In this document: piece by piece, positions 1-25,123 of the stretch
Position numbering within the stretch: the first letter of the stretch is position 1
How the letters are laid out: every line of letters begins with the position of its first letter
Assembly (NCBI RefSeq): GCF_009914755.1
Contig: NC_060935.1
Length of the DNA: 64,000 nt
From: the human T2T-CHM13v2.0 reference genome, Homo sapiens
Reading direction: 5' to 3' (one strand)
The notes under the pieces: model-generated
Seen by the model: the letters and a program-made list of their open reading frames with translations, nothing else
Told to the model about the DNA's origin: nothing
The model's database searches: none
Position numbers and translations under genes: made by a program

Positions 1-69
1 CTGAACCCCTCTTAGCTCTTAGTGGGCTCTTCAACTAGAAACCAAATTGAAAACAGGTTAATTTTGCAA

Positions 70-901
70 AGCTCAATATCACTGTTAAATAGAGAAATGC
101 AAATCAAAACCACAACGAGATGCCACCTAACACCAGTCAGGATAGTTACTATTAACAAGTCAAAAAATAACAGATGCTGGCCAGGTTATGGAGAAAAAGG
201 AAGGTTATACACTATTGGTGGGAGGGTAAATTATTTCAGCCACTGTGGAAGACAGGGTGGCGATTCCTCAAAGACCTAAAGACAAAAATACCATTTGACC
301 CATCAATTCCATTACTGGGTATTGGCCCAGAGGAATACGAATCATTCTATTATAAAGACACATGCATGCATATGTTCATTGCAGCACTATTCACCATAGC
401 ACAGACATAGAATCAACCTAAATGCGTAGCAAAGATAGAGTGCATAAACAAAATATGGTACATATGCACCATAGAATACTATGCAGTCATAAAAAAGAAT
501 GAGATCATGGTCTTTACAGGGACATACATGCAGGTGGAGGTCATTCTTTTCAGCAAACTAAGACAGGAATAGAAAACCAGATACCACATGCTCTCACTTA
601 TAACTTGGAACTAAATGATGAGAATACATGGAGACATAGAGGGAAACAGCACACACTGCAGCCCTTGCAGGGTGAAGGTTGGGAAGAGGGAGAGGAGCAG
701 GAAAAACAACGAATGGGTTAATGCCTTGGTGATGAAATAATCTGTTAATGCCTAGGCTTAATGCCTGGGTGATGAAATAATCTGTTAATGCCTAGGCTTA
801 ACGCCTGGTTGATGAAATAATCTGTACAACCAGCCCCCATGAGGCAAGTGTACCTATGGAACAAACCTGCACTCATACCTTTGAAACCTACAATAAAAAA
901 A
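70..901 (+). mobile_element. 5'-truncated L1 (older L1PA/L1PB-type ORF2 end and 3' UTR)
   Basis: ORF2 C-terminal remnants (MQIKTT, PLWKT, FIAALFTIA), L1 3' UTR and an A-rich end. Confidence 0.9.
718..824. repeat. 40-bp tandem repeat (~2.7 copies) inside the L1 3' UTR
   Basis: ttaatgcctaggcttaatgcctgggtgatgaaataatctg at 745-784, a near-identical copy at 785-824, and a partial copy at 718-744. Confidence 0.9.
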
Positions 902-904
902 TTA

Positions 905-1375
905 ATGATTATACAAATTTTATAGTTTCTCATATACCTGGGGATCTTCACACGTCAGTGATGTCTGAAAAATAACCTAAACAAGATACTTTTATACTTT
1001 GTAGACAAAGAACAATCAATTTTAGAAGAATGACAGGACAAAGAAAATCTGGCTAAGAGAGTGAAGTTTTCTAGGGGAATCACTATGACATAGATGAGGT
1101 GGCTGTAAACCATGTGGAAGATAAGGATTTTTCATTAGGTATGTTTATTCAGGTCCCTTGTAGTCTCTAAGTTCAAGTCCATGGTCATAAGGGCCACATT
1201 CTAGCCCTGGGATGAGAGGATGCCTATCCCAGAGGAAACTTCATCACTGGCTGCATGCAGGAAGAGACAGATCAGTTCATCCTTTCTGAAACTGTAAGTT
1301 CTTCAATGTTTTTCACTCAAAATAATCAATATACCAATCTGGCATATTTTGGGGTGACATATCTTTCACTCCATT
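905..1375 (-). mobile_element. ERV1 LTR, MER34-like
   Basis: The reverse complement begins ...atatgtcaccccaaaatatgcc...gattattttgag, resembling the recalled MER34-group LTR 5' end. Confidence 0.55.
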
Positions 1376-1430
1376 AAAAGATGACAATAGCATATATTTA
1401 TATTAAAACATCGCATTTTCTAAAAACTTC

Positions 1431-1432
<2 letters not shown>

Positions 1433-1467
<35 letters not shown>
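1433..1467. repeat. (TG)n microsatellite
   Basis: Direct reading. Confidence 0.97.
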
Positions 1468-1468
<1 letters not shown>

Positions 1469-1683
1469 TCTTCTCTCTGTGCTCTGATTTCCCAAAGCAT
1501 TGGTAGGTTTGGCTCTATTCTCAGTTATATAGAAGGGAATATTTATCATTCAATACCTATTCCTGGTACATACACTTTGAGCTAATTACTGATGTGGGAG
1601 CTTGGAACATATCAGTGAAGAAAAAATGAAAAATCCCTGCTTTCCTGGAACTTTTGTTCTAGTAGGAAGAAACAAAAAACAAA

Positions 1684-1875
1684 TAGTAAAGTCTCACTTA
1701 ACATCATCAATAGGTTCTTGGAAAGTGTAACTTTAAGGAAACAATGTATAGTTTGTCCTCAAATAATGTCATTTTGTTCGACCATTGATGAAAAAAAATA
1801 GTTTCGTTGTATATCTTTTCACTTAAAGTCACAATTTCCAAAAACCTACTGAGGATGTTAAGTGAGGATGTACTA
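1684..1875. mobile_element. MER82-like Tigger MITE (internally deleted) within an L2 remnant
   Basis: Long imperfect terminal inverted repeats: ctcacttaacatcatcaataggttcttggaaa ... tttccaaaaacctactgaggatgttaagtgag. Confidence 0.75.
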
Positions 1876-2439
1876 TAATATAAATGCAATATGTAAAGAT
1901 TAAAAATATGTTTTAACCATGTTAAGTACTTTAAACAATAAAGTTTGGCAGTAAGGGAACTCTCAGATTATAATAGTGTGTTCACAGAAGGCTTATCTAA
2001 AAACTTTACATTTGACCAAAACCTAAGGAAAAGAATTCCAAGCAGAGGAGACACTAGTCAGAATAGGTGGAGAAGACAGCAGGGAAAAGAACTAAAGAAT
2101 AAGACAGAGATTTAACAGGGACTATATCATTTATCCAATTCAATGTTTGCTTTGTAAATATTTCTGTTTTAACTATAAATAAGTCAGGACAACCTGAAAG
2201 CTAGACCTTCATATTTTTCAATATGGTCCCAGTGTGCAGTATTGAAGAAAAGGATAATGTAAGGCAAATAGTAGTCACTCAATCAGTATTTGATAACAAT
2301 TATCTTAAAATTACACATATTCTTATAATTATAGAAATATATGGGAGTTATCAGAGGGCTGAGGAAGATGACTTTTAAATATAAATTTTTTTATATGCAG
2401 TGCTCCTAATGCTCTTATAATTTTTTGCAGGTTTTGTAG

Positions 2440-2620
2440 TATATTGCAATTACATCAGATAATTGTGATTAATTTTAATTGTCTTTTTGTGACCTCAGGA
2501 GACTGGGACAATAGGTAGTCTCTAGGGTTCATGTCTCCTAGGTGTAACTGTAGATATAAGAATGCATGTATCACTCTCAGCCTGGAAACATCCTACCTTT
2601 GCCATCAATAGGTTTGCATT
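2440..2620 (+). promoter_or_regulatory. Orphan OR5D-type putative promoter / first non-coding exon
   Basis: Homologous to blocks ~2.6 kb upstream of both OR5D18 and OR5D16. Has TAATT HD-like sites, O/E-like CCTCAGGAGA and TCTCTAGGGT, TATA-like GATATAAG, and donor-like AG|GTTTGC (GT 2612-2613). Confidence 0.5.
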
Positions 2621-4465
2621 GAGATTCTAAAGACAGATTGATATTAATTTCAATCCATAAAAAAATCTAGGAGGAGCAAAATGCACCCTTAGAACTAAAC
2701 AGTTCTTGAAAACTATGCGTGAATATGCAAGAAACAGGAAGTACTCTCTTTCCACACAACTTTGTATCAGAAGGCCTGGCTCCTGAACAACAGCCTCATG
2801 TAAAACTGGTACCTGGGATGGGGAAATAGAAGAACTTTGAGAATATTAGGAATGTGTATTTCCTTGCTTCTGTTAAGTTTTGGAGGAAATTTCAAGACAG
2901 AATAGACAAGTAGTTATGTAAATTGAAATAAATAGAAATGAAACAGACTCTCTAGTGAAAAAAACAAGGGAAGGGATCTGCTTTAATTAAGATTGTATAA
3001 CAGGAAATGCATGTCACCCCTAAGAGCAAAAATAACAGCTAAATTTGAAGGGGTGGGGGGGATTGACAGAAAAGGAGATTTCATCTGCCATATTTCCTGG
3101 AATCAAATATCTAAACTTTTAATAACTATTCAATACTTGCATTTGTGACACAAAACTCATTATGTAAAATATAACATTAGTTTAAAATAAAATTTTAAAT
3201 GCTTTAGAGGAGTGAAATGCAGTATTGGGAAAAATGTCCTAATTAGATTTTCTGGGTTTGTGATGGACTGTCTTTTGAGATTGTCTTTAATACTCAAATT
3301 CACTAGTATAGGAAAAGAGGGCCATTGAGTAACTTGGTCTTGCATGTAACTGGAAATCTTTCTTGATGGGCCGTCTAAAACTTTCTTGGGTGTTGTGAAT
3401 AGAGATAATGTCTTTGATGATAGAGAAAGCAAATACAGATATGACAGGATCTGAGAGGTGTTGGACACTAATTAGAGAAATTTAATGATTTCCTTTCCTA
3501 TTCCTTTCCTTTCCCATTAATGTTTCCTGTTTTCTCATTAAGGGTCTTGATGTTGCAGTAGTACCTCTAGTTTTTAGTCCTTCTCCTTCATAGGTAATAG
3601 AAGGACAAAATTAAAATCCAGTGTGTCTTGAAGGGAGTGAAGAGAAATAGAGATGGAGATAGGGAAAGACAGAGAGGATCTTGAAGAGAAGAGAAATTTG
3701 CAAGTCATAGTCTTCCTATAGTTATTCCTCGGTGAGAAGATTTTCCTCAATCCCATTCTCATGTGTTTTATCTTGATGCTGCTTTCTAGTGTATCTTTGT
3801 GGCAATTAACTATTGTTGGGCTCTTTCTCACACATGTAGAGTCTCTAGACTGCTTATTAATGGAAATATAGTTATTAATGAAGGGAATATGTTAGTATCT
3901 ACATCTGGATCATGGGGCAGATTTGGGGGCAGGTAAAGGGATACATGGCTAGGAGTCTGAGGATCAGAGCTCTAGTCATGCATAGGTAGATTGGTCTTTA
4001 TACATGTATCAATGGAAAGGTCAAAGTTTCTCTTTTTTCTCCTTTGTCACCTCCAGAATAAAGAATAAACTAGATTATCTGTATAATCTGTTCTAATTTG
4101 ATTATTTCTCAGGCAATGAGGAAAGATTGCTAATTAGCACACCCTGAGTTAAGGAGCATACACTCTAAAAAATTAATTAAGACGTATTTCTAAGTTATTT
4201 TTACAAGGTTGGACAAAGAGTAAAGCGCTATATGGAATTAACAATAAAGGCACAAATGTTAAGTGTTAGGGCTATTAATAGTTAATGTCACTGGGAACAT
4301 ATGATGTAAAAACTAATTTATTTTGAAAATTCTGATTTGTATTACTGATTACAGGATTTACATAATCAGCCATCATATTATACCAGGATTATCTTTTATG
4401 AATTTTCAATATTCAAGGAAGGCCTAAGGTATTATGTAAATTTCTATTTAAAATAATCACACATA

Positions 4466-4756
<291 letters not shown>

Positions 4757-5506
4757 CACATAATTTAACCTCATCTTCTTATATTTGTAAATATTAAAAA
4801 TTACAGTTAATAACAATATATTATTCAATAATTATATTTTTCTCAAGAAAATTTTAAAAGATTACAATTTTCTACAACTTTAGATATTTAGTAAATCTTG
4901 AACAATAAACACACAGATTCTAGAAGAGATATTTTCCTTCATGCTTCTCAAATTATGGGAAGGCTACCACAAAGACTTCCCCAAATTTAATTATGTAATA
5001 ATTGATTATCTTCTATTATTTCACATTGAAGTAACTTATTTAAAATAATAAAATTTATTTTAAATTTAAAATTGTTGATTGAATTAAAACTAGGTAATGC
5101 AATATTTTATTCATATGGCATTATCTTATGTGGTTTAAGTACATGTCATCAAAAGTGTAGTGCTTCACACTTATATTATTCGATTTATGGATAGTGACCT
5201 TGACATTTTTTCCAACTATTTTAAATTTAAATCAACTTTTAAAGACTCCTCCTATCTCTTTAAGCATAAGGTAAATAGGTAAGTAAAACAGCTTTCTTGT
5301 GGGTTGTCTATATGACATAAGGCAATACTGCCAATTATGTTTTCTATAGATGCATTTTCAGCTTTTCTATCATGACTCTCTTCCTCAAGAGAGACGCATT
5401 TTGTGATAATAATTTAGCAATACACTAAGAACAAAATGAATAGATATTTAACAAAGGTTTTCATTATTCTATTATATATCTGAGTGTATATAGTATACTA
5501 TATATG

Positions 5507-7793
5507 TGTATTAGTTCATTTTCATGATGCAAATACAGATATACCAGAGACTGGGCAATTCAAAAAAGAAAGAGATTTAATGGACTTACAGTTCTACATG
5601 CCTGGGGAGGCCTCACAATCATGGTGGAAGGCAAGGAGGAGCAAGTCACACCTTACATAGATGGCAGCAGGCAGAAGGGAGCTTGTGTAGGGAAATTCTC
5701 CCTCCTAGAACCATCAGATCTCGTAAGACTTATTCACTATCTCCAGAACACCATGGGAAAGACCAGCCCCCATGATTCAGTAATCTCCCACCTGGTCCCT
5801 CCCACAACATGTGTGACTACAAGATGAAATTTGGGTAGAGACACAGCCAAACCATATCGTTTTGCCTCTGGCCCCTCCCAAATCTCATGTCCTCAAATTT
5901 AAAAATCAATCATGCCTTCCCAACCATCCCCCAAAGTCTTAACTCATTTAAGCATTAACTTGAAAGTCCACAGTCCAAAGTCTCATGTAAGACAAGGCAA
6001 GTCCCTTCTGCCTATAAGCCTGTAAAATCAAAAGCAAGTTAAGTACTTCCTAGATACAATGGGGGTGCAGGCATTGGGCAAAGACAGCCGTTCCAAATGG
6101 AAGAAATTGGGCAAAAAAAAGGGGGCTACAGGCCCCAGGAACATCCAGAATCCAGCAGGGCAGTGAAATCTTAGAGTTCCAAAATCATCTCCTTTGATTC
6201 CATGTCTCACATCCAGGTCACGCTGATGCAGGAGGTAGTTTCCCATGGTCTTGGGCAGCTCTGCCCCTGTGGCTTTGCAGGGTATAGCACCCCTCCTGGC
6301 TGCCTTCATGTGCTGTCACTGAGTGTCTGTGGCTTTTCCAGGAACACAGTGAAAACTGTTGGTGGATCTACCATTCTGGGGTCTGGAGGACAGTTGCCTT
6401 CTTCTTACAGCTCTACTAGGCAGTGCCTCAGTAGGGACTCTGTGTGAAGGCTCTGACTCCACATTTTCCTTCCCCACTGCCCTAGCAGTGGTTCTCCATG
6501 AGGGCACTGTCCCTACAGCAAACTTCTGCCTGCGCATTCAGGCAATTCCATACATCTTCTGAAATCTAAGTTGAGGTTCCCAAACCTCAATTCTTGACTT
6601 CTGTGTACCCACAGGCTCAACATCACTTGGACTCTGCCAAGGCTGGGGGCTTCCACCCTCTTAAGCAACAGCCCAAGCTGTACCTTGCCCCCTTTTAGTC
6701 ATGGCTGGAGCAAGCGGTATTCAGGGCACCAAGTCCTGAATGTATGCAGCAAGGGAATGTAGGCTTGGCCCACAAAATCATTTTTTCCTCCTTAACCTCC
6801 AGGCCTGTGATGGGAGGGGCTGCTGCAAAGTTCTCTGACATGCCCTGGAGACATTTTCTCTATTATCTTGGTGATTAGCATTCAGTTCCTCTTTACTTAT
6901 GCAAATTTCTGCAGTTGGCTTGAATTTCTCCTCAGAAAAATGGGATTTTCTTTTCTATTCCATTGTCAAGCTGCAAATTTTCCAAAATTTTATGCTGTTT
7001 CCCTTTTAAAACTGAATGCCTTTAACAGCACCCAAGTCAGCTCTTGAATGCTTTGATGCTTAGAAATTTCTTCTGCTGGATACCCTAAATCATCTTTCTC
7101 AAGTTCAAATTGCCACAGATCTCTAAGGCATGGGCAAAATGCCACCAGTCTCTTTGCTAAAACATAACAACAGTCACATTTGCTCCAGTTTTCAACAAAT
7201 TTCTCATCTCCATCTGAGACCACCTCAGCCTGGATTTCATTGTCCATATCATTATCAGCATTTTGGTCAAAGCCATTCAACAAGTCTCTAGGGAGTTCCA
7301 AATTTTCTCACACTTTCCTGTCTTCTTCTGAACCCTCAAAACTGTTCCAATCTCTGACTGTTACCCAGTTCCAAAGTTGCTTCCACATTTTTGGGTATCT
7401 TTTCAGCAGCGATGCCCTCTACTGTTACTGATTTACTGTATTAGTTTGTTTTCACAATGCTAATGAAGACATACCCAAGACTGGACAATTTACAAATGAA
7501 AGAGGTTTAATGGACTTACAGTTAGTCCACATGCCTGCGGAAGCCTCACAATCATGGTGGAAGGCAAGGAGGAGCAAGTCATATCTTACATGGATGGTGG
7601 CAAGCAAAAACAGAGCTTGTGCAGGGAAACTCCCCCTATTAGAACCATCAGATCTAACGAGACTTATTTGCTATCATGAAAACAGCACTGGAAAGACCTG
7701 CCACCATGATTCAATGACCTCCCACTGGGTCCCTTCCACAACACGTGGGAATGCAAGATGAGATTTGGATGGAGACACAGCCAAACCATATCA
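5507..7793 (-). mobile_element. Full-length THE1 (MaLR) element: LTRs 5507-5859 and 7437-7793 with internal region
   Basis: TG...CA termini, two ~355-bp LTRs and THE1-int sequence. Perfect 5-bp TSD ATATG at 5502-5506 and 7794-7798. Confidence 0.93.
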
Positions 7794-7837
7794 ATATGTA
7801 TATATTATGCATATAGTCATACTCAATAGCCACCAGC

Positions 7838-8134
7838 TTTTTTTTTTTTTTTGAGACAGGATCTCTCTTGCCACCCAGCCTGGAGTGCAGTGGTGCAAAC
7901 ACAGCACACTGAAGCCTGGAACTCCTGTGCTCAAGTGATCCCCTCATCTCATCCTCCCAAGTAGCTGGGACTACAGGTGCATGCTACAAAACCTGGTTAA
8001 TTTTTTAATTTTTTGGTAGGGAAAGTGTTTCACCATGTTTCCCAGGCTTGTCTTGAACTCCTAAGATCAAGCAATCTGCTCACCTTGGTCTCCCAATGTT
8101 CTGGAATTAGGGTCAGTAGTCATCATGCCTGGCC
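7838..8134 (-). mobile_element. AluJ-like element shared by both duplication copies
   Basis: Diverged Alu with poly(T). It has the same flank as the Alu ending at 23863. Confidence 0.88.
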
Positions 8135-8734
8135 AAGGTTATACTGGCTAGAATACATGTCAACTGCCTTTCTTTGCCATGAAAAAAAATATACAAACAC
8201 CAAAGAGAAACAAGTCATACCATGGGTTTGAAGTGTTCTGATTGCAGGCAACTTCAGGCCTCATGGATAGCAGCATTTCAAGTTTAGGCTTTGCATATTT
8301 GCTTTTGTTTTTCTCATCAGAGTGATTCACGTGGAAAGATGTGTACGGATTAGAGAAATCCCTTGCTTTTAAAGAGTGAGAGAAAAGTGGTTGTGAGAAT
8401 GCTAGGTACAAAAGGAGACCCAGATAGTCTCCTCCAATTCAGAGAATTCCCAGATCAATTTTGGAAAACACATATAGATTGTAACTCATTACATCCATGG
8501 AATTATTCAAATGTTTGGTTTATCTAGGGTCACACAGACTGAGATTTGAACACTTTGTTCAGGTTGACCTTCCTATATCTAGTCAAGAAGGAGGCAGAGC
8601 TTGAGGAGGTCCTTGAGAAATTCCCATTTAATGACCACCAGCATTGAAGAAGGAGTCACCCACACCAGTACCATTCTGGAGCTCTGCTCATCCTTATAGA
8701 TACACAGATGGCACAAACAAAAAGCTACACTTGG

Positions 8735-8930
8735 CTGCTCTCTACCAGGGAATCTGTGTGTGACTGTGGGCAAGTTACAACTGCTGTGCCTCCATAACCT
8801 TATTTTTAAAGGAGAAATAACAACAGTACTGATGTCAACCATTTTTATGAAGAAAAACATGTGTTCACAGTTAGATATAGAATAGTACCTGGCACAGGCG
8901 AAGTACTCAGTAAATGTAACCAATTATTAT
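8735..8930 (+). mobile_element. MIR (paralogue ~24480-24670)
   Basis: MIR core tgtgactgtgggcaagttac and 3' end cctggcaca...ctcagtaaatg. Confidence 0.75.
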
Positions 8931-9219
8931 TCTTAGTAAAATAGATTCATTATCCCCACCCCTTTCTGGTATTTGGAGGATCTCTGGTGTGGTTTCAGAC
9001 TCTATGCTCTGTAGGAAGGAGTTTTTGAGTATAATAAGACAAACGAAGTTTATAAGACCTATTCATATATTTCATAATGACAGTGTGAGTATTGGCTCAC
9101 AGAGGCAATACTTGGATGTGGCATACAGTGTTCTGCATTTCATCATGAACTCTGAATGTAATTGTATTAGATTACAATAATTTGTACCAAGTTGGATTTT
9201 TTCTCACCCCTTTTATATT

Positions 9220-9530
9220 CCATAATGGTCAGTAATTGTTGGAGTCCCAAGATATGATGGTTTCCTTGATATTTTGTTGATATCCCACAGAGATCAGTGA
9301 TTGTTTTGGGAAGCTTATGAAACATGGCCCCAGGGACACACACACACACACAAACACACACACAAATATAAAACAGCATTTTCCATCATAGCATCTTCAG
9401 AAATAGGAGAAGCAATGGCCCTCCAATAGGTTGGTTAGTTGAACTACATTGTGTATTTTTTAGAATGAACATAAATTATATGTTCTGGGAGCTGGAAGCT
9501 TGACTTTTGTTCCTCATGGAGGTAATTTAT
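9220..9530 (+). promoter_or_regulatory. Putative OR5L1 promoter region (paralogous region ~24960-25290 for OR5L2)
   Basis: Locally well-conserved unique sequence between copies, ~2.4 kb upstream of the ATG. Has TAATTG, TCCCACAGAGA and O/E-like GCCCCAGGGA (9327-9336 and 25067-25076). Confidence 0.35.
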
Positions 9531-10031
9531 TATAGTCATGCATTGCTGAAGGAGGAATTCTAAAGGAAGGAAATAGTATTATAAAATGTTTAAAATCTGT
9601 GTTTTATCCCTCTCTTAATCAGATAATGTTTTTTCAAATGCCATGGTTTGAGCACTGCTTGATGGCAGTATTTTTCTCATTGTGTATTAAGGGACAATTT
9701 GGTGGGAAGTGGAAACTATTTAATCTGCAATACCAAATATCTTACAACAGCTATTAATGTGAGATGAAAAGCAGTCTGAACAAATTGGGATGAACACTTG
9801 TTTTCTCTATCCTTCCCTCTTTCCCCTCTATCACACTAACTCTGTCCAGACAACCTAGTAAAGACTGCATGGAGATTATCTCCAAAGTCACCTTGATGCT
9901 GAGGGTGGTAGCAAGAGGCAATAGGAACAGGACTGTTCATGGAGGGACATGAACATGAGAACCACCTCTGAAGCAGAAAGAAGAGGAATTACTTTTTCTT
10001 TTTGAAAAGCATGTTGAAATGCCTCTCTATG

Positions 10032-10261
10032 GCAGGTTTCTCAACTAAGGCATCATTGAATTGTTGGTCCAGATAACGTTTTGTTGTATGTGCTGCAGGC
10101 AGGGACCTTCATGTACTTTGTAGAAGGCATTGTAGATTGTTCAACAACATCCCCACTACATGTCAATAGCACCCCCTTCCTCTTGTAACAACCAAAAATG
10201 TCCCCAGACATTGACAAATATGCCATTGGGATCAAAGTCACTTTTGACAAAGAATCACCGC
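10032..10261 (-). mobile_element. MER20 hAT DNA transposon (paralogue ~25789-26020)
   Basis: caggtttctcaac...acaaccaaaaatgtccccagacattgacaaat matches the recalled MER20 sequence. Confidence 0.8.
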
Positions 10262-11669
10262 TCTATGTGCAATTAACAGCTTGATTTTTTTTTTCTTTAG
10301 ATTTGAAAGCAGGAAAGGGCTTTCAAAAGTGTGTATTAGTTTGAACTCAGGGGAAGATACACAACTCACCTCTCCTGGTCATTTTAAGAGAAAACACCAT
10401 ATTATCAAAACAATTTTTTTAAATTTTCAACCTGGCATTTAGCAATATGCATGCTGCATATCTTTGAAATCAGTTGAAGAATGGGAAAAATGTCTGGTTG
10501 TGTTGGTCTCTAGTCCAGATTTTTTTCTTGCAGGAGTGCTTGACTGGTGCTTCTACAATGATGTATGAACGTATCAAGGGTCAGGAAGAGAAAGAATGAC
10601 AAGATTCTCACCCTCACTTTACGTTTGCTGTGTGTCAAAGGTCTAAAAAGTATGTGTCCCTAATTTTAAAAATTCCAACGTCTTTCCCCATTTCACTCAC
10701 TAATAATGATGTTTTGGGAGAAGTAAGACAAGTTAACAGATTTTTTAAAATAAATATTTATGTTCATGGATGTTGTAAGGATTAAATATACGATTGTGTG
10801 TGGCATAAATATATGTATTTATATTATACATTATTATATACTATTTTTTCTCTACATTCTGGCTGTTTTTAAGTATTTTATCCCTTTTCACAGTCATTTA
10901 TTGATATCATTAAGATGATTTAAAGTTATCCTTTATATGACTGCATGCTTTTATATTATATACACTACAAATGTGATCATCTTTCTCTTATTTGATATTT
11001 TATTTCTAAGTTTTAATATTACAAACAATACTGCAATGCAGCAGTGGGAAGTTTTCTTAGTAATTTCCCATGCACATCTTTGATCAGGTCTTCAAATAGA
11101 TTGAAAGCAGTAAATTTATTTAAGACATAATTTTTTAAGACTGTGGAGTCATACTTACAGTAAGTTGTCCCCAAGAGTACCAATTCCCTAAACCATGGCT
11201 GACATTGAAAAATGTAATTAACCAAATCACCATACTAATTTTACAGAGAAAATACTAATACAGATTATAAAATGAGTTTCTTCATCTAAAATATATCAAT
11301 AAAATGCAAACACTTGACTGCTAACATCTTAAGTGTATTTCTCATCACTGTAATGAAAAATTCAGAGAGAGGTGCCGTAGATTCTAAACATTATTTTCTA
11401 GGATCCCAATATTTGGAGTTGGCTAAGAAAATGGGATTTGAATTTGAAAGAGTAAGGAGGCTAATTAAATAGTAAGTTGACCTCATTCCCAATGATTCAG
11501 TGAAAAGCTGTCAATTCTCAAAGACTAATTAAAAGAACAATATAAATTCATATATACGTTAATATTTTTGTTTGATCTTTGAATTAAACTAAGTTTATGC
11601 ATTTGTGTTATACAAAGTTGAACTTTTTAAAATTTCACAAAAAGTTTTATTCTTTGCTGATAAGATAAA

Positions 11670-11700
11670 CTATCCTACTTTTTCTGGTGTCTTTTTACAG
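11670..11700 (+). promoter_or_regulatory. Likely splice acceptor of the OR5L1 coding exon (paralogous AG at 27440-27441)
   Basis: Polypyrimidine tract ...tttttctggtgtctttttacAG|g, conserved in both copies. Confidence 0.6.
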
Positions 11701-11785
11701 GATACAGCCAAAACTAAAATTTAGACTATATAATGGAGAATAATTTTTAAGTTTCTTTTCCTCCAATCTCATATAAATTGGAGAC

Positions 11786-12721
11786 ATGGGCAAGGAAAAC
11801 TGCACCACTGTGGCTGAGTTCATTCTCCTTGGACTATCAGATGTCCCTGAGTTGAGAGTCTGCCTCTTCCTGCTGTTCCTTCTCATCTATGGAGTCACGT
11901 TGTTAGCCAACCTGGGCATGATTGCACTGATTCAGGTCAGCTCTCGGCTCCACACCCCCATGTACTTTTTCCTCAGCCACTTGTCCTCTGTAGATTTCTG
12001 CTACTCCTCAATAATTGTGCCAAAAATGTTGGCTAATATCTTTAACAAGGACAAAGCCATCTCCTTCCTAGGGTGCATGGTGCAATTCTACTTGTTTTGC
12101 ACTTGTGTGGTCACTGAGGTCTTCCTGCTGGCCGTGATGGCCTATGACCGCTTTGTGGCCATCTGTAACCCTTTGCTATACACAGTCACCATGTCTTGGA
12201 AGGTGCGTGTGGAGCTGGCTTCTTGCTGCTACTTCTGTGGGACGGTGTGTTCTCTGATTCATTTGTGCTTAGCTCTTAGGATCCCCTTCTATAGATCTAA
12301 TGTGATTAACCACTTTTTCTGTGATCTACCTCCTGTCTTAAGTCTTGCTTGCTCTGATATCACTGTGAATGAGACACTGCTGTTCCTGGTGGCCACTTTG
12401 AATGAGAGTGTTACCATCATGATCATCCTCACCTCCTACCTGCTAATTCTCACCACCATCCTGAAGATGGGCTCTGCAGAGGGCAGGCACAAAGCCTTCT
12501 CCACCTGTGCTTCCCACCTCACAGCTATCACTGTCTTCCATGGAACAGTCCTTTCCATTTATTGCAGGCCCAGTTCAGGCAATAGTGGAGATGCTGACAA
12601 AGTGGCCACCGTGTTCTACACAGTCGTGATTCCTATGCTGAACTCTGTGATCTACAGCCTGAGAAATAAAGATGTGAAAGAAGCTCTCAGAAAAGTGATG
12701 GGCTCCAAAATTCACTCCTAG
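11786..12721 (+). CDS. OR5L1: Olfactory receptor family 5 subfamily L member 1 (311 aa, 7TM GPCR)
   Basis: Intact ORF with OR motifs [36 protein letters not shown] and YSLRNK, plus N-glycosylation site NCT. TM7 reads NSVIY. Symbol from recalled protein sequence and gene order. Confidence 0.93.
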
Positions 12722-13849
12722 GGAAGATTTTATTAGCACAATTCAGGATTCCCAAGTAGTGGCAGGCGGGGGTTCACGGGAGAGGCACAGTGTTGGAGTA
12801 CAGAGAAGAAGGAGCTCAGTAGTTATAAGCGAGTCTTTTTTGATTCACTTATCTTTGTGCTTCTTAAACTTTAAGGAGTAGGATTGAACATATTTCAAAA
12901 TTTGCTGCCAACTTTTAAAAAATAAATACATAATGTTTAAATGGATATGAGCAATAGTATTATTAAGATAGACAAGTTTTGCTTTCTCTAAAACCATTAC
13001 AAGTCTTCTAATGAAGAACTTACAAGGGTTACAATTTATTTCAGGATCCATTATGGAAACTACGATTCTTTTCAAAACAAAGTTTTCATTATTTTGTATT
13101 GATGATTACATTGTCATTGAAGTTTGTAGAATTTCATATATATATGGATTATATGTATATATGGAATATATATGTGTGGAATACATATGGAATATTTATA
13201 TATTCCATATATATGTATAATGTGTATATATTTATCAGTTTTTGACATTTTAAAATTCTTTATTATTTTCTTGCTGTTGTTTTAGTTTCCAGTGTCATTG
13301 GAACTTTGGATAATATGTTATATGATAGATGAAAAACATAATAATTTCACAGGACTCTAGGAAAATTGAATTTAAAAAGCTGGAATCACTTACAAGGAGC
13401 TTAGAATAATCCCTGAAACATAATAAGTAGTTCTCTCTTTTTCTCTCTGTCTATGCTATATACATATATATTATATATACATAAACATGTGCATATAATA
13501 ATTTAGAATTATTATGAATCTCAGCATTTCTGAATTAACCATCTTCTCTCACTTTATCTTTACTTCTTATCTTCAAACTAACTCTAAAATCCATTGAGGA
13601 AGACATGCTTACTGACACTTATAAGAGGACTTTTAATCTCTGTTCATGTTCTTTTCATGTGTTTTTAGTTTTGCTGAACTCCCTTTTATTTCACTTTCCA
13701 TATGTACCCCAACCACATTTCTGAATTCTATATTGAATTATATGCACCATTGATGCTTTCTTTGTGACTTCATTATGATTTATGTCAATTTCCTCATTGT
13801 GTTTATTTGTTTGACAAGATTCAGAAAAATTTTATACTATGATACCGTG

Positions 13850-15300
13850 TGAAAGAATAAAGAAAGGTAAAACAAAAACTAATAGCAATAGGAAGAGGTG
13901 GAAGCAAACTTAATAAAGACAAGTACTTATTTAAGTGTTATTAAAACAAAGTTTGCCAGCAAATGAGAAAAGAATCACAGTTCGAAAATATGAAAAGATA
14001 AATAAAAATCCTTTAATCTTAATTTGAATTAGAAATTTACTTTGAAATGAGTTTTTCTCCTAATTACCACTAAAAGCCATAACAGAGTCACTGTGAACAT
14101 TCTTATTTCACAAATTTTCTCTGAAAAGAAACCTATTCCCTCTAAACAGAGCTAGGGCTTCTTGGAGAAATGGCTGTAAACATTTTTATTTTCCAAATTT
14201 TCTCTAAAAGGAAACCTTTTATCTCTAAACAGAACTAGGGCTTCTTGGAGAAATGGCTAATTTGAAGTCTAGGGTGGAAAATATGCAAGATGAGCCTTGG
14301 GCTGTTCGATGTTCCAGGAAGCTAGAATACTGTCAACAGTTAATCAGATTGTCTCTAAGACACATAGGAAGAGATTTGAAATTGCTGCCACTGGTTTATT
14401 GTTAGAAGATTTTAATGTAAAAATGAATATTGATGCAGCTGATTTAAAGGCCTCATGTATGTTTCTATCTAGATACTAAAAAAGAAAAAATATAAGAAAT
14501 CATTGATTACTACTAATGGTTGTCAGGGTACCAACTCATTACTCTGAAAATACGTTATTAAAAAATCAAACATTCATTCCAATTTTCCTATATGAATTAT
14601 ATTTCAGCATCACCTCAGAGGTGAAGTTCAAAAGAAATAAAAGCATCAAGAATGAAATCAGACAATCACAATTGTAGAACTCCACATTTAAAAAGTGGAT
14701 CAAGGTGACTTCAATGAACATAACAATCATTAGGAAAAAAGTTTGTGGGTAATTTTAAAACAAAGTAATTAGGTTGACACTACTTGAATCCAGAGATCAG
14801 AATGATCATCACTTAAAGTAGGACAACTAGTTGTCATCAACCAGTTATCATATGCTTCTCAATGGACTGCAACCAACAGTAGTCAGAAAAATCAATGAAG
14901 AATTTTTGCCTAAAAGACACTAAAAGAATGAACCTGAGCTAATAAGTCATCTTCATCTGAATATTAGTTTAAAAAATTGGTACAGAAATATATACAATGA
15001 CACAAAATGAAGCACTAAGCCAAATACAGAGAATGCTTCATTATTATTATTTTTCCCCCAAAATATTGCCTAACACACACACACACAGAGGCTGTCACAC
15101 AAAGAATGGTTATATAACAAAGTAAACTTTTATAACAACCATATTTATCTGAATCTTGATTCAAACTAACTGGAAAAAATATGCCTTTGAGACAATTGGG
15201 GTAATTTAAAAATGGATTGGGTATTTAATAATATTAAGAATATAATGATGATTTTGTTAGGTGCAGTTTTGGCATGAGTGTTTGGTTCAAACATTAAAGA
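13850..15300 (+). mobile_element. Ancient L1M (L1MC-like) 3' region containing a ~73-bp direct duplication (14103-14175 / 14186-14258)
   Basis: ctagggcttcttggagaaatggct occurs twice. Also has the L1M 3' end motif ttttgagacaattgggg...tggattgggtattt. Confidence 0.6.
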
Positions 15301-15317
15301 CTCTCCAATCAAAAAGT

Positions 15318-15458
15318 GATAAACTACCTATCAGGTATTATGCTTATTACCCAGGTGATGAAGTAATCTGTACAGCAAATCCCTGTGACAACAATTTACC
15401 TATATAACAAACATGCACATGTACCCCTGAATCTAAAACAAAAGTTAAAAAATGAAAA
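15318..15458 (+). mobile_element. Short L1 3' end fragment (L1PA16/L1PB-like)
   Basis: ggtgatgaagtaatctgtaca...catgtacccctgaatctaaaa, with a degenerate TSD ctct(c)(c)aatca(a/g)aagt. Confidence 0.75.
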
Positions 15459-15554
15459 TACTCTAATCAGAAGTCGATAGTTTGGCCTGCATTGTACTTC
15501 AGCATCGCCATGCCCTGGAGGAACTGAAGGGAGCAGGGAATCAAGTGGGATCTA

Positions 15555-16786
<1,232 letters not shown>

Positions 16787-17139
16787 ACTGAGTAATTAAG
16801 AGAACAGAGATTTAACAGGGACTATAATATTTATCCAATTGAGTGTTTACTTCGTAATATTTCTGCTTTAACCCAAATGAGTCAAGATGACCGGAAAGCT
16901 AGATCTTCCTATTTTTTAATATGGTCAGAGCGTGTGGTGTGGAGGAAGAGGATTATGTCCAGCAAATAGTAGTTAGTGGATCAGTATCTGATACCAATGA
17001 TCTTAAAATTACACATGTTCTTATAATTGGAGAAATATATGGAAGTGATAAGAGGGCTGAGGAAAATGACTTTAAAATATGAAAGTTTTATATGAAGTGC
17101 TCCTGATGTTTTAATTTTTTTTCTGCAAGTTTCTAGTAT

Positions 17140-17325
17140 ATTAGAATTACATGAGATAATGGTGATTAATTTTAATTTTTTTTGTGTGTGTGTGAGCTCA
17201 GGAGACTGGGGCAATAGGTAGTCTCTATGGTTCATGTCTCCTAGGCGTAACTATAGATATAAGAAAACATGTATCACTCTCAGCCTGGAAACGTCCTCCC
17301 TTTGCCATCAGCAGGTTTGCTTTAA
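17140..17325 (+). promoter_or_regulatory. Putative OR5D18 promoter / first non-coding exon
   Basis: Block conserved in three copies. Has TAAT sites, CTCAGGAGA, GATATAAG and donor-like CAG|GTTTGC (GT 17315-17316). Confidence 0.5.
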
Positions 17326-17934
17326 GATTCTAAAGACAGATTGATATTCATTTCAACCTACTTAACAACTTAGGAGGAGGAAAATGCACCCTTAGGATTA
17401 AGCAGTTCTTGAAAATATGTGTGAATGTGCAAAGAACAGGAAGTGCTCTCTTTCTGCGAAGCTTTGTATCAGAAGGCCTGACTCCTGAACAATAGTCTTA
17501 TGAAAACAGGTACCTGGGATGGGGAAATAGAAGAGCTTTGAGAATATTAGGAGTGTGTATTGCCTTGCTTCTGTTAAGTTTTGGAGAAAAAGTCAAGGTA
17601 GAATAGGCAATATTGAAGTAAATTGAATTAAACAGAGAGATAATAGACTCTCTAGTGAAAAAAATAAAAGGCGCCAGCTTTAATTAAGATTATATAACAG
17701 GAAACACATGTCAGCCCTAAAAGCAAAAATAACAACTAAATTCAAAAGGAGATAAACTATAGGAAAGAAGATTTCATCTGTCATATTTCGGGGATTCAAA
17801 TATTTAAAGCATTATTACCTATTTTATAGTTACGTTTTGGACACAAAGGCCATTATGTAAAATGTAACATTAGTTTAAAATAAAATTTAAATGCCTTAGA
17901 TAAATAAAATGCAGTGTTAAGAAAAAAATGTGCT

Positions 17935-18120
17935 GTCCAGGCATTTTGGCTCATGCCTGTAATCTCAGCTACTCAGGAGGCTGAGGCAGGAGAATCTCTT
18001 GAACCCAGGAGGCGGGAGGCGGAGGTTACAGTGAGCCATAATCACGCCACTGCACTCCAGTCTGGGCGACAGAGCAAGATTCTGTCTCCAAAAAAAAAAA
18101 AGGAAAGAAAGAAAGAGAAA
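17935..18120 (+). mobile_element. Monomeric Alu (left-arm start fused to right arm)
   Basis: ggctcatgcctgtaatctcagc runs directly into tactcaggaggctgaggcaggagaat. TSD agaaaaa(a)at(g/a)tgct. Empty site in copy A at ~3230-3245. Confidence 0.85.
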
Positions 18121-18180
18121 AGAAAAAATATGCTAATTAGGATATCTGGGTTTGTGATGGATTGTCTTTTGAGGTTGTCT

Positions 18181-18487
18181 ATTTTTTTTTGAGACGGAGT
18201 CTCGCTCTGTCGCCCAGGCTGGAGTGCAGTGGCGCGGGGTCTCTGCTTACTGGAAGCTCCGCCTCCTGGGTTCACTGGGTTCACGCCATTCTCCTGCCTC
18301 AGCCTCCTGAGTAGCTGGGACTACAGGCGCCTGCCACTACGCCCGGGTAATTTTTTGTATTTTTTTTTTAGTAGAGACGGGGTTTCACCGTGTTAGCCAG
18401 GATGGTCTCAATCTCTTGACCTCGTGATCCACCCGCCTCTGTCTCCCAAAGTGCTGGGATTACAGTCGTGAGCCACCGCGCCCGGCC
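18181..18487 (-). mobile_element. AluY
   Basis: Diagnostics cacgccattctcc and ccgtgttagccaggatgg. TSD ttgaggttgtct at 18169-18180 and 18488-18499. Internal ctgggttca duplication. Empty site in copy A at ~3275-3290. Confidence 0.92.
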
Positions 18488-19927
18488 TTGAGGTTGTCTT
18501 TAATACACAAATTCATGAGTATAGGAAGAGAGGGCCCTTGAATATGTTGGTCTTGCATGTAAATTAACATCTTTCTTGATAGGCCGTCTAAAAATTTGGG
18601 TGGGTTATGTGAATAGATATAATGTCTATTATGATAGAGAAAGAGATTACAGATATGATAGCATCTGAGAGGTGTTGGACACTAATTAGAGCAATATAAT
18701 GATTCTTTCCTATTATTGTTTTCTGTTTTCTCATGAAATGTATTCATGTTGCTGTACTATCTCAAGTTTTTAGTTCTTCTCCTTCATAGGTAATAGATGG
18801 ACACAATGAATATATAATGTGTCTTGAAGGGAGAGAAAAGAAATAGACATGGAGACAGGGATAGACAGAGAGGACCTAGAAGAAAAGGGAAGTTTGCAAG
18901 TCAGACTCTTACACTAGTTATTTCTGGGTAAAAAGATTTTCCTCAATCCCATTCTCATGTGTTTTATCTTGATGCTGCTTTCTAATATATCTTTGTGGCA
19001 GTAACTGTCACTGGACTATGTAGATTCTCTAGTCTGCTTATTAATTGAAAGTATGGTTATTAATGAAGGGAATGTGTTAGTATCTCGACCTAGATAATGG
19101 AGCAGAGTTTGGTGCGGGTAAAGGGTTACATGTCTAGGAGTTCAAGGATCAAAACTCTAGTCACAGATGTGTAGATTGGCCTTCCTGGGCATATCGATAG
19201 GAAATTCAAAGCTTCTCTGGCTTCTACTTTGTCACCTATAGAATAAAGAATAAACAAGGGTATCTGTATTGACTATTCGATATTTATTATTTCTCAAGCA
19301 ATGAGGAAGGATTGATAATTAGTACAGCCTGATTTTGGAGCATACGCTCTGAAACAATTAGTTCAGCTGTATTTTGAAGTCAAATTTTCTGGGTCAGACA
19401 AACATTAAACTGCTATATGGAATTAACAATAAAGGCACAAATGTTAAGCGTTAGGGCTCTTGATAGTTAATGTCATCGTATAAACAAATTATGTGAAAAC
19501 TAATTTATGAAATTTTGATTTGTATAACTGATTATAAGATTTACACAATCAGTCATCATATTATACGAGGAAGATCATTTATGTAGAATGCTTAAGGAGG
19601 CCTGAAATTATTATGTAAATTTTTAATTTAAAATAATCACAAATATTTAATCTCATTTTCCTATATTTGGAAATATTAAAAATTACAGTTACTAACTTAC
19701 TCTTTTACTCAATAATTGTATTTTTCTTAAGAAATTAAAAAACATTACAGTGTTTTTACATGTTAGATATTTAAGAAATCTTAAACAACAAACTCATAGA
19801 TTCCGGAAGAGATATTTGCTTCATCCTTCAGGAGCCGTAAAGGTATTCAATCACCCTTCTTATTTTCTCATTCTCCTTAACATTTTTGTTTTCAGAACTA
19901 ACTTTCAGATTCGAAGAAACAGAAGCG

Positions 19928-20869
19928 ATGCTGCTGACAGATAGAAATACAAGTGGGACCACGTTCACCCTCTTGGGCTTCTCAGATTACCCAGAACTGC
20001 AAGTCCCACTCTTCCTGGTTTTTCTGGCCATCTACAATGTCACTGTGCTAGGGAATATTGGGTTGATTGTGATCATCAAAATCAACCCCAAACTGCATAC
20101 CCCCATGTACTTTTTCCTCAGCCAACTCTCCTTTGTGGATTTCTGCTATTCCTCCATCATTGCTCCCAAGATGTTGGTGAACCTTGTTGTCAAAGACAGA
20201 ACCATTTCATTTTTAGGATGCGTAGTACAATTCTTTTTCTTCTGTACCTTTGTGGTCACTGAATCCTTTTTATTAGCTGTGATGGCCTATGACCGCTTCG
20301 TGGCCATTTGCAACCCTCTGCTCTACACAGTTGACATGTCCCAGAAACTCTGCGTGCTGCTGGTTGTGGGATCCTATGCCTGGGGAGTCTCATGTTCCTT
20401 GGAACTGACGTGCTCTGCTTTAAAGTTATGTTTTCATGGTTTCAACACAATCAATCACTTCTTCTGTGAGTTCTCCTCACTACTCTCCCTTTCTTGCTCT
20501 GATACTTACATCAACCAGTGGCTGCTATTCTTTCTTGCCACCTTTAATGAAATCAGCACACTACTCATCGTTCTCACATCTTATGCGTTCATTGTTGTAA
20601 CCATCCTCAAGATGCGTTCAGTCAGTGGGCGCCGCAAAGCCTTCTCCACCTGTGCCTCCCACCTGACTGCCATCACCATCTTCCATGGCACCATCCTCTT
20701 CCTTTACTGTGTGCCCAACTCCAAAAACTCCAGGCACACAGTCAAAGTGGCCTCTGTGTTTTACACCGTGGTGATCCCCATGTTGAATCCCCTGATCTAC
20801 AGTCTGAGAAATAAAGATGTCAAGGATACAGTCACCGAGATACTGGACACCAAAGTCTTCTCTTACTGA
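19928..20869 (+). CDS. OR5D18: Olfactory receptor family 5 subfamily D member 18 (313 aa); true start ATG at 19928, not the non-ATG start at 19886 in the ORF track
   Basis: [10 protein letters not shown] start; motifs [44 protein letters not shown]. Polypyrimidine tract and AG acceptor at 19894-19895 lie upstream. Confidence 0.92.
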
Positions 20870-21586
20870 GCCTGTTACTTTCATGGAGTTTGTCACACAT
20901 ATAAATAAATTCTGTCCATAAATATTGATCTTAAAGATATCTTTACAAATAAACAAAGTTAGGGTTGTACAACTCAACGAAATGGATTTTCTTTTCAACA
21001 GACTAAACTTAGCTCTGTCTCTTACTTTCTGGGAAGCATCAGTAATCCCTCTAATCTTTAATATTTCATTTATGAAATTAGTATAGCATGGGTTAGATCA
21101 TAGTCTGATTGTGAAGATTAAAATATAATGGACACCTTACGTAAGTCAATGGATATTAATTTCATGTCCTTTCCTTATAAGATACCGGGAATAGACTAAG
21201 TGCTTAGGAAACATATGAATTTCTTTTATAAATGTGCAAAATAAGTTAAAAGAAGAAATAGTCCTCATCTTCAAGGATGAAAACTGTGTTGATAATAGGA
21301 CAATGAAGAAGTGGCCATTGTGTAAGGCAGAAATTAATATGTACCAAAGAGAGTTTGAGAGAAGAGAAAGTTCAAATCTACTTAGGGATTTTAGAAGGAT
21401 GTCTTAATGAAATAGGTATTGTTTGAAACCGGCTTTTGAAAAGGAAATGGGCGGAGTTTATGAGATACATTCCAGGGAGAAAGGAGTTTTCTTCTGGAGA
21501 AAACAATGTGAATAAAACCAATTAGGTAAGAATGTAATACCTAGTCAAAGATCTAATACTTGTTTTATTGAGCTAACATAATATAA

Positions 21587-21617
21587 TGTGTGTTTGTGTG
21601 TGTGTGTGTGTGTGTGT
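21587..21617. repeat. (TG)n microsatellite
   Basis: Direct reading. Confidence 0.93.
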
Positions 21618-23472: not shown

Positions 23473-23510
23473 GATATATATATACACACACATATATGTG
23501 TGTGTGTGTA

Positions 23511-23589
<79 letters not shown>

Positions 23590-25071: not shown

Positions 25072-25075
<4 letters not shown>

Positions 25076-25123
<48 letters not shown>
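25076..25123. repeat. (CA)n microsatellite (shorter interrupted paralogue at 9336-9365)
   Basis: Direct reading. Confidence 0.96.

What the first reader, a model, noticed from the sequence alone, without database searches (positions are those of the whole stretch)
4900..5000. Clean ~3.04 kb microhomology deletion erased an entire OR5D gene without leaving a pseudogene
Copy A reads ...gagatattttccttcatgc-TTC-tcaaattatgggaaggctacc. The left part matches copy B up to ...gatatttgcttcatcc-TTC (19827-19829). The right part matches copy B from cact-TTC-tcaaattctgggaatgctacc (22868-22870 onward). So B segment 19830-22870 (3041 bp: acceptor, whole OR5D18 ORF and 3' flank) has no counterpart in A. The upstream block is also shared with OR5D16, which favours deletion in A over insertion in B. 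Gene and pseudogene counts cannot see this kind of loss.
Basis: seen in the sequence. Interest (0 to 1): 0.7.

Follow-up and report, generated by a model that had tools for sequence, protein, structure and literature searches.

The report
Old deletion removed one duplicated smell-receptor gene
One copy of an old two-gene olfactory-receptor duplication on human chromosome 11 has cleanly lost a 3 kb piece holding a whole receptor gene, which is an ordinary case of the known gain and loss of these genes.

Summary
Copy A joins two blocks at TTC 4945-4947. In copy B those blocks lie 3041 bp apart (19830-22870), with no filler bases.

The B-only piece holds the candidate acceptor region, the OR5D18 ORF and 2 kb of 3' flank. 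Copy A holds no OR remnant.

- The older paralogue OR5D16 is colinear with B from -2.6 kb to +1.0 kb, on both sides of the left breakpoint. Copy A keeps the same upstream blocks.
- Two unlinked loci (chr9, chr1) carry a low-copy repeat that runs unbroken across the right breakpoint.

So A lost the segment; insertion into B is very unlikely.

Caveats:
- The 3-bp microhomology is what 5.6% of random breakpoints give.
- The loss may have happened during the duplication itself, so an intact gene need not ever have existed in A.
- The 200 bp next to the junction is not shared with OR5D16; only blocks further upstream are.
- Reconciled-tree methods already count losses that leave no pseudogene.

Verdict: an ordinary, probably undescribed event of a known kind. 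No outgroup genomes were available.

The parts
1..13812 (+). In-window part of tandem unit A. The whole unit runs from about window -2866, some 300 bp after the OR5D14 stop, to 13812.
   Evidence: colinear blocks match unit B at 77-88% identity. Stretch -195..2103 is extra in A, and part of it (68-745) is a high-copy element.
2104..4947 (+). OR5D-type upstream block kept in A, interrupted by an Alu. It matches B 16804-19829.
   Evidence: 80-82.5% identity; 83-85% over aligned columns.
2791..3194 (+). Copy in A of a block conserved between A, B and the OR5D16 upstream region. Candidate OR5D promoter or 5' exon (inference only).
   Evidence: A against OR5D16 upstream 36694-37081, E 2.5e-15; three-way alignment. 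The B copy is single-copy in the genome apart from A.
4469..4753 (+). 5'-truncated Alu with poly(A) and a target-site duplication (AATCACACATA). Inserted in A after the duplication; B has the empty site.
   Evidence: overlap of the B coordinates 19630-19647 between two matches. The name Alu is recalled from the sequence signature; no repeat library was available.
4945..4947 (+). Deletion junction: TTC shared by both flanks.
4948..5495 (+). Block to the right of the junction. It matches B 22871-23403 and begins inside the right-hand part of low-copy repeat Y.
   Evidence: 84.7% identity.
5507..7804 (+). Full-length LTR-flanked element of about 2.3 kb (MaLR-like; name recalled). Present in A, absent from B. 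LTRs at 5507-5870 and 7437-7804.
   Evidence: 19,103 first-look candidates, 40 scored, about 80-85% identity over about 2.29 kb; direct repeats; LTR-LTR identity 81.6%, K 0.21.
7853..13812 (+). Rest of unit A, including OR5L1 (coding 11786-12721). It matches B 23581-29525.
   Evidence: 82.6% over 6078 columns.
14111..16787 (+). Start of tandem unit B, homologous to window -2866..-196 (the stretch just after OR5D14).
   Evidence: four colinear blocks, 77-88% identity, E down to 0.
16804..19829 (+). OR5D18 upstream block in B, shared with A. Alu-like insertions lie at about 17927-18487.
19830..22870 (+). B-only 3041 bp with no counterpart in A: 98 bp with candidate splice acceptors, the OR5D18 ORF and 2001 bp of 3' flank.
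19928..20869 (+). OR5D18 ORF, intact, 313 aa.
   Evidence: translation, single terminal stop; annotation supplied with the finding.
22688..22866 (+). Fragment of a dispersed LTR-like repeat just inside the right end of the B-only piece.
   Evidence: 6 unlinked loci, 66-83% identity. Family name not determined.
22836..22963 (+). Low-copy dispersed repeat Y, which spans the right breakpoint (22867|22868). It is intact in B; only its right part is present in A.
   Evidence: loci on chr9 (window 22839-22904, 79%) and chr1 (22836-22963, 70%), with an exact TCATTCACTTTCTCA across the breakpoint.
22871..29525 (+). Rest of unit B, including OR5L2 (coding 27528-28463).
36322..38138 (+). OR5D16 upstream blocks colinear with the A and B upstream blocks.
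   Evidence: against B, 36484-36540, 36651-37081 (E 2.7e-21) and 38018-38138 (E 5.9e-5). Against A, 36322-36434, 36694-37081, 37915-37993 and 38018-38138 (E 1.4e-7).
39061..40047 (+). OR5D16 ORF, the closest paralogue of OR5D18, used here as an internal outgroup.
   Evidence: 85% nt identity, dS 0.40.
40827..41060 (+). OR5D16 3'-flank block homologous to the B-only 3' flank 21344-21584.
   Evidence: 59% over 241 columns, E 2.8e-10, colinear.

Best explanation
An ancestral stretch of about 15 kb carried an OR5D16/18-type gene followed by an OR5L gene. It was duplicated in tandem just downstream of OR5D14, giving unit A (window about -2866 to 13812, OR5L1) and unit B (about 14111 to 29525, OR5D18 and OR5L2). 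Unit B keeps the ancestral layout. Unit A lost 3041 bp: the last 98 bp before the start codon, the whole OR5D ORF and 2 kb of 3' flank. The loss was a single non-homologous joining with no filler and 3 bp of shared sequence, by end joining or a replication template switch. What is shown: the junction, the absence of any remnant, and that B is the ancestral state. What is inferred: the repair pathway, that the loss followed rather than accompanied the duplication, and the early-primate age. The confidence given (0.83) is for loss in the A lineage, at or after the duplication; loss strictly after the duplication I put at about 0.70.
For: Junction and size.

No OR remnant in A and no relocated copy anywhere in the genome. 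In one search, the matches to 19400-23300 outside the ORF are copy A plus one 38-bp hit.

Polarity at the left breakpoint: OR5D16 is colinear with B at about -2632..-2575, -2494..-2041 (61% identity, E 2.7e-21), -1071..-955, -64..ORF and +475..+715. Offsets agree within about 30-85 bp upstream and about 300 bp downstream. Copy A matches the same OR5D16 upstream blocks on its own (E 2.5e-15 and 1.4e-7). OR5D16 split off earlier than A/B (dS 0.40 against non-coding K 0.174), so it serves as an outgroup. The upstream block and the ORF were therefore already linked before A and B arose. As a control, 0 of 6 other OR5D loci (about 4.5 kb each side) show non-repeat flank matches. The main block is single-copy apart from A.

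Polarity at the right breakpoint: two unlinked loci carry sequence continuous across 22867|22868 (genome-scale E 5.6e-6 and 2e-5; 27 of 32 and 22 of 29 matches on the B-only side).

No donor for an insertion: the 2-kb 3' flank is unique in the genome.

No homology between the two breakpoint flanks: local score 16 against a shuffle mean of 14.8, with 161 of 500 shuffles reaching it.

True tandem structure.
Against: No outgroup species could be examined, so polarity rests on a paralogue and on repeat integrity. The left breakpoint is bracketed by OR5D16-colinear blocks at -955 and -64 but not crossed by one. Repeat Y is known from only two other loci of 66-128 bp. The 3-bp microhomology is within chance (P 0.056). 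Nothing in one genome separates loss after the duplication from loss during it. A relative-rate test on the retained upstream block shows no faster decay in A (37 against 29 unique changes, chi-square 0.97), so there is no sign of lost constraint that could date the event.
Confidence: 0.83

Rival explanations
1. Unit A was born incomplete. The duplication was a complex replication-based event with a second template switch that skipped the 3041 bp, so no OR5D gene ever existed in A.
For: A clean junction with short microhomology fits template switching as well as end joining. Nothing in the sequence dates the loss relative to the duplication (one search shows no rate asymmetry).
Against: It needs two linked switches in one event. 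A simple tandem duplication followed by a separate deletion uses two common event types. The A-end/B-start boundary (13812 to about 14111-14188) shows no obvious complexity beyond about 300 bp of unaligned sequence.
Confidence: 0.13
2. The ancestral unit lacked an OR5D gene, and the 3041 bp were inserted into B by duplicative transposition or retroposition.
For: An indel between two copies is symmetric by itself. TTC flanks the B-only piece on both sides and could be read as a 3-bp target duplication.
Against: OR5D16 has the same order of upstream block, ORF and 3' block as B, and A keeps that upstream block. A repeat runs unbroken across the right end of the supposed insert in two unlinked loci. 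No donor exists for the 2-kb flank. There is no poly(A) at 22850-22870, and the piece carries the pyrimidine tract and AG region before the ATG, so it is not a processed copy.
Confidence: 0.02
3. The deletion arose by recombination between homologous repeats at the two breakpoints (NAHR), or as a by-product of the nearby Alu or LTR-element insertions.
For: An Alu lies 190 bp to the left and an LTR element 560 bp to the right of the junction in A.
Against: The 300-bp flanks of the two breakpoints share no significant similarity. Both insertions have their own intact ends away from the junction: the Alu has a target-site duplication and the LTR element has paired LTRs.
Confidence: 0.02

Closest known systems
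Whole-gene deletion alleles of human olfactory receptor genes (Hasin et al. 2008, PMC2570968; abstract and passages read)
   Same: Entire OR genes are removed without leaving a pseudogene. That paper discusses non-homologous end joining as a likely mechanism beside NAHR.
   Different: Those deletions are recent, polymorphic and human-derived, span several kb up to 83 kb, and were detected as copy-number variants. This event separates two paralogous units that are about 16% diverged, is presumably old and fixed (not tested), and is seen only by comparing the paralogues. That paper does not mention OR5L or OR5D (0 occurrences).
[quoted passage not shown] 2014, PMC4158756; passages read)
   Same: Tandem duplication followed by loss of one duplicate. 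Losses are inferred whether or not a pseudogene survives, and elimination of pseudogenes from genomes is discussed.
   Different: That work counts losses from gene trees and does not map breakpoints. Here the physical scar is resolved to the base. Its supplementary tables could not be read, so I could not see how it groups OR5D18, OR5L1 and OR5L2.
Short-microhomology end joining or replication template switching (alt-EJ, FoSTeS/MMBIR; recalled general knowledge, no paper read)
   Same: A blunt junction with no filler, a few shared bases, and no long homology between the breakpoints.
   Different: Three bases are not enough to tell these apart from classical end joining or chance. The sequence at the time of the event can no longer be reconstructed.

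Membership tests
Tandem segmental duplication (OR5D-OR5L cassette) | Colinear homology of two adjacent units in the same orientation | tested here: met
   There are 8781 aligned columns in the five blocks from 2104 onward, at 85.5% identity (84.4% for the 7845 non-coding columns).
Tandem segmental duplication (OR5D-OR5L cassette) | The end of unit 1 abuts the start of unit 2 | tested here: met
   Homology of A ends at 13812 and homology of unit B to the start of A begins at 14111-14188.
Deletion in A (B ancestral) | An outgroup shows the undeleted arrangement across the breakpoints | tested here: met
   The paralogue outgroup OR5D16 brackets the left breakpoint. Two unlinked repeat copies span the right breakpoint. 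No species outgroup was available.
Deletion in A (B ancestral) | Orthologous undeleted allele in another species or haplotype | not testable with these tools
   No primate or other mammalian genomes and no human pangenome are held. The genome search covers only the window's own assembly and prokaryotes.
Microhomology-mediated deletion (alt-EJ / MMBIR) | Microhomology at the junction beyond chance | tested here: inconclusive
   3 bp observed; P(3 bp or more) = 0.056 in 200,000 simulated deletions. An imperfect TTCA.C.TTC similarity surrounds it.
Microhomology-mediated deletion (alt-EJ / MMBIR) | No filler DNA and no long homology between the breakpoints | tested here: met
   no filler; flank similarity no higher than shuffles.
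NAHR deletion | Homologous repeats in direct orientation at both breakpoints | tested here: not met
   score 16 against a shuffle mean of 14.8 (sd 2.3); 26% of 466 random window pairs reach it.
Retroposed or transposed insertion in B | Poly(A) tail, long target-site duplication or transposon termini at the ends of the B-only piece, and a donor locus | tested here: not met
   No poly(A) at the right end, only TTC shared, an acceptor-like intron end included, and no donor for the flank in the genome.
OR family 5 subfamily D (identity of the lost gene) | Sequence of the lost ORF | not testable with these tools
   Nothing of it remains in A. The subfamily is inferred from unit B (OR5D18) and from the OR5D16-type upstream block retained in A.

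The most novel reading that the evidence does not exclude
The deletion left an orphaned OR5D-type upstream control block (A 2791-3194, the counterpart of the block 2.0-2.5 kb upstream of OR5D18 and OR5D16) and moved it 3 kb closer to OR5L1. It might now act as an alternative promoter or 5' exon for OR5L1, rewiring which control region chooses that receptor. Separately, the undeleted unit with a third intact OR5D16/18-type gene may survive in some primate lineages or in rare human haplotypes.
Probability: 0.07. Interest if true: 0.45.

Novelty: new member of a known kind. Interest (0 to 1): 0.2.

Why it matters
It gives a base-resolved example of an OR gene lost from a tandem duplicate by physical deletion rather than by decay into a pseudogene. 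It also shows that the direction of such an indel can be settled within one genome, using an older paralogue and the integrity of repeats. The event adds one lost gene to the history of the 11q OR5D/OR5L cluster and corrects the extent of the duplication to about 15 kb. It does not change how OR families are understood to evolve. Whole-gene OR deletions and losses that leave no pseudogene are already documented and already counted by tree reconciliation.

Tried and rejected
- Standard BLAST of the OR5D18 flanks against OR5D16 and the rest of the window found only the ORF. The same was true genome-wide. Flank homology to OR5D16 appeared only with word size 7 and +1/-1 scoring.
- Six other OR5D loci (OR5D14, 15P, 13, 17P, 3, 2P, about 4.5 kb each side) gave no non-repeat flank match. 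They could not serve as outgroups, but they work as negative controls.
- I looked for a relocated or inverted remnant of the B-only piece in the extended unit A. None was found.
- I tested whether the retained upstream block decays faster in A than in B. It does not, so this gives no handle on timing.
- I looked for homology between the breakpoint flanks. None was found.
- Literature: a search for OR5L1/OR5L2/OR5D18 listed 11 papers, none of them (titles and abstract starts) about the evolution of this locus. In one of them I read the passages naming these genes, and it only lists them inside a large CNV (PMC4868026). A search for OR5D18 with olfactory epithelium and RNA-seq (5 papers, listing only) gave nothing on its 5' exon.
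- The supplements of PMC4158756, which might group these genes into orthologous groups, could not be read.
- I did not try to name the repeat families. No repeat library is available, so Alu and MaLR are recalled labels.

Full report
**1. The observation**

- A has ...ttccttcatgc-TTC-tcaaattatggg with TTC at 4945-4947.
- B-left has ...gcttcatcc-TTC-aggagcc with TTC at 19827-19829.
- B-right has ...attcact-TTC-tcaaattctggg with TTC at 22868-22870.

BLAST of window 1-16000 against the rest gives a colinear chain:

| A | B | identity |
|---|---|---|
| 2104-3234 | 16804-17926 | 82.5% |
| 3275-4467 | 18488-19647 | 80.2% |
| 4747-4947 | 19630-19829 | 81.9% |
| 4945-5495 | 22868-23403 | 81.6% |
| 7853-13812 | 23581-29525 | 82.6% |

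The two matches at the junction overlap by exactly the three bases TTC, and there is no filler. The B-only stretch is 3041 bp. A genome-wide search that starts at B 22836 picks up copy A from window 22868 onward.

**2. What is missing from A**

The B-only piece (19830-22870) has three parts:
- 98 bp before the ATG, with pyrimidine-rich ...ttttcag and ...ctttcag motifs. These are candidate splice acceptors, which is an inference.
- The intact 313-codon OR5D18 ORF.
- 2001 bp of 3' flank.

tblastn with the OR5D18 and OR5D16 proteins against window 1-11700 finds nothing (best E 0.18, 21 aa, minus strand). The same query hits OR5L1 at E 3e-135. A sensitive blastn of the B-only piece against window -8600..14200 finds only the OR5D14 and OR5L1 ORFs and a 41-bp low-complexity match. 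No pseudogene remnant or relocated fragment exists in unit A.

Genome-wide, the matches to 19400-23300 outside the ORF are copy A plus one 38-bp hit. The 3' flank is unique apart from a simple stretch of about 45 bp and the repeat fragments near its right end. The missing A segment has therefore not moved elsewhere in this genome.

**3. The duplication is larger than described, and truly tandem**

The 3-kb 'spacer' between A and B is homologous to the stretch just before the window. Window 14111-16787 matches window -2866..-196 in four colinear blocks at 77-88% identity.
- Unit A starts about 300 bp after the OR5D14 stop (-3176) and ends at 13812.
- Unit B starts at about 14111-14188 and ends at 29525.

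Over the five blocks from 2104 onward there are 8781 aligned columns. The 7845 non-coding columns are 84.4% identical, JC K = 0.174.

The other large differences that I examined between the units are repeat insertions:
- An Alu with poly(A) and a target-site duplication in A, with the empty site in B.
- Alu-like DNA in B at about 17927-18487.
- A 2.3-kb LTR-flanked high-copy element in A at 5507-7804.
- A high-copy element at 68-745, inside the A-only stretch -195..2103. The remainder of that stretch was not resolved.

The two LTRs of the 2.3-kb element are 81.6% identical, K 0.21. That is about the same as the A/B distance, so the element entered soon after the duplication.

From recalled primate substitution rates, about 0.09 substitutions per site per copy puts the duplication roughly at or before the base of primates. 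This is a rough inference and was not tested.

**4. Which copy is ancestral?**

Standard BLAST finds only the ORF shared between OR5D18 and OR5D16 (19928-20833 = 39061-39969, 86%). The 200 bp next to the junction has no OR5D16 counterpart even at sensitive settings.

Sensitive blastn (word size 7, +1/-1) does find colinear blocks further out. Positions are relative to each gene's ATG or stop:

| Query | Position in query | OR5D16 match | Identity / E |
|---|---|---|---|
| B 17296-17353 | -2632..-2575 | -2577..-2521 | E 0.001 |
| B 17434-17887 | -2494..-2041 | -2410..-1980 | 61% over 469 columns, E 2.7e-21 |
| B 18857-18973 | -1071..-955 | -1043..-923 | E 5.9e-5 |
| B ORF match | extends to -64 | -63 | |
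| B-only 3' flank 21344-21584 | +475..+715 | +780..+1013 | E 2.8e-10 |
| A 2448-2559 | | 36322-36434 | E 1.9e-5 |
| A 2791-3194 | | 36694-37081 | E 2.5e-15 |
| A 3531-3610 | | 37915-37993 | E 0.001 |
| A 3661-3777 | | 38018-38138 | E 1.4e-7 |

These come, and copy A matches the OR5D16 upstream blocks independently of B. The three-way alignment has 243 invariant columns.

Two controls support this:
- The main block is single-copy apart from A, so it is not a common repeat.
- None of six other OR5D loci shows a non-repeat flank match.

OR5D16 and OR5D18 diverged earlier than A and B: dS 0.40 against non-coding K 0.174, with flanks mostly unalignable. The order upstream block, ORF, 3' block therefore existed before A and B arose. 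A carries that upstream block without the ORF.

A second, independent line concerns the right breakpoint. Searching 22300-23400 against the genome gives eight dispersed hits.
- Six belong to an LTR-like repeat that ends at about 22857-22872.
- Two belong to a low-copy repeat that runs across the breakpoint: chr9 over window 22839-22904 (79%) and chr1 over window 22836-22963 (70%).
- These two match on the B-only side at 22 of 29 and 27 of 32 bases, with an exact TCATTCACTTTCTCA across 22867|22868.

An insert could not end by chance so as to recreate a pre-existing repeat. B is intact here, and A is truncated.

Together with the lack of any donor for the 2-kb flank, and of poly(A) or long target duplications, insertion into B is very unlikely (about 2%).

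**5. Mechanism**

The 300-bp flanks of the two breakpoints share no significant similarity: local score 16, shuffle mean 14.8, and 161 of 500 shuffles reach it. Recombination between repeats is therefore excluded. The Alu and the LTR element near the junction have their own intact ends 190 and 560 bp away, so they did not cause the deletion.

The junction has no filler and 3 bp of shared sequence inside an imperfect TTCA.C.TTC similarity. Microhomology of 3 bp or more occurs at 5.6% of random 3041-bp deletions simulated in this sequence. About 16% of bases have changed since the duplication.

The event is thus a non-homologous joining. End joining and a replication template switch both fit, and the label 'microhomology-mediated' cannot be established.

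Nothing separates a deletion after the duplication (my estimate about 70%) from a copy born incomplete in a complex duplication (about 13%). The retained upstream block in A has not evolved faster than the one in B (37 against 29 unique changes, chi-square 0.97).

**6. Comparison with what is known**

Whole-gene OR deletions in humans are documented. Nine common deletion alleles affect 15 OR genes, and NHEJ is discussed beside NAHR (PMC2570968, abstract and passages). That paper does not mention OR5L or OR5D.

OR birth-and-death studies infer losses by the reconciled-tree method and note that pseudogenes are eliminated from genomes (PMC4158756, passages). Losses that leave no pseudogene are therefore already counted, although they are not mapped.

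My searches found no description of this particular event (searches were listings; one search was passages of one unrelated CNV paper). The supplements of PMC4158756 could not be read. They may show how these genes are grouped across mammals.

**7. Verdict**

This is a correct and precise observation, with the direction of the event now supported by two independent internal arguments. It is an ordinary example of a known process: a new member of a known kind, of low to moderate interest (0.2). The decisive test is the orthologous junction in other primates and in human pangenomes, which could not be run here.

Noticed in passing
window 11737-12736 against 27478-28478: OR5L1 and OR5L2 are 94.6% identical over the ORF (dS 0.114, dN/dS 0.34). 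Per-100-bp identity is 89-98% over roughly the ORF span, against 75-89% in most flanking 100-bp windows and non-coding K 0.174. Synonymous divergence below the flank level suggests gene conversion limited to the ORF, or constraint on synonymous sites.
   Followed up: partly
window 14111-16787 against window -2866..-196 (L013): The stretch between units A and B is itself part of the duplication. The unit is about 15 kb, starts about 300 bp after OR5D14, and is truly tandem.
   Followed up: yes
window 17434-17887, 2791-3194 and 36651-37081: A block of about 450 bp lies 2.0-2.5 kb upstream of OR5D18 and OR5D16 and is also kept in the gene-less unit A. Its conserved core ends at ...CTTGCTTCT followed by GT(T/A)AA, a possible splice donor. 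It is a candidate shared promoter or 5' non-coding exon. No transcript data were checked.
   Followed up: partly
window 5507-7804: A full-length LTR-flanked element of about 2.3 kb from a very high-copy family lies in A and is absent from B. Its LTRs are 81.6% identical (K 0.21), about the same as the A/B distance, which dates its insertion close to the duplication.
   Followed up: partly
window 4469-4753: A 5'-truncated, CpG-rich Alu with a 37-nt poly(A) and an 11-bp target-site duplication lies in A. B has the empty site at 19630-19647.
   Followed up: yes
window 23480-23590: B has a long compound (TG)n/(TA)n/(GA)n microsatellite at the place where A carries the LTR element and an Alu.
   Followed up: no
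window 68-745 and 792-917: A high-copy element of about 680 bp (14,176 first-look candidates, copies 80-84% identical) lies inside the A-only stretch -195..2103. The rest of that stretch (918-2103) was not resolved.
   Followed up: no
window 19928-20869 against 39061-40047: OR5D18 and OR5D16 are 85% identical in the ORF (dS 0.40, dN/dS 0.27), while their flanks keep only islands of 59-71% identity. OR5D16 also has a longer C-terminal end (328 against 313 aa).
   Followed up: partly
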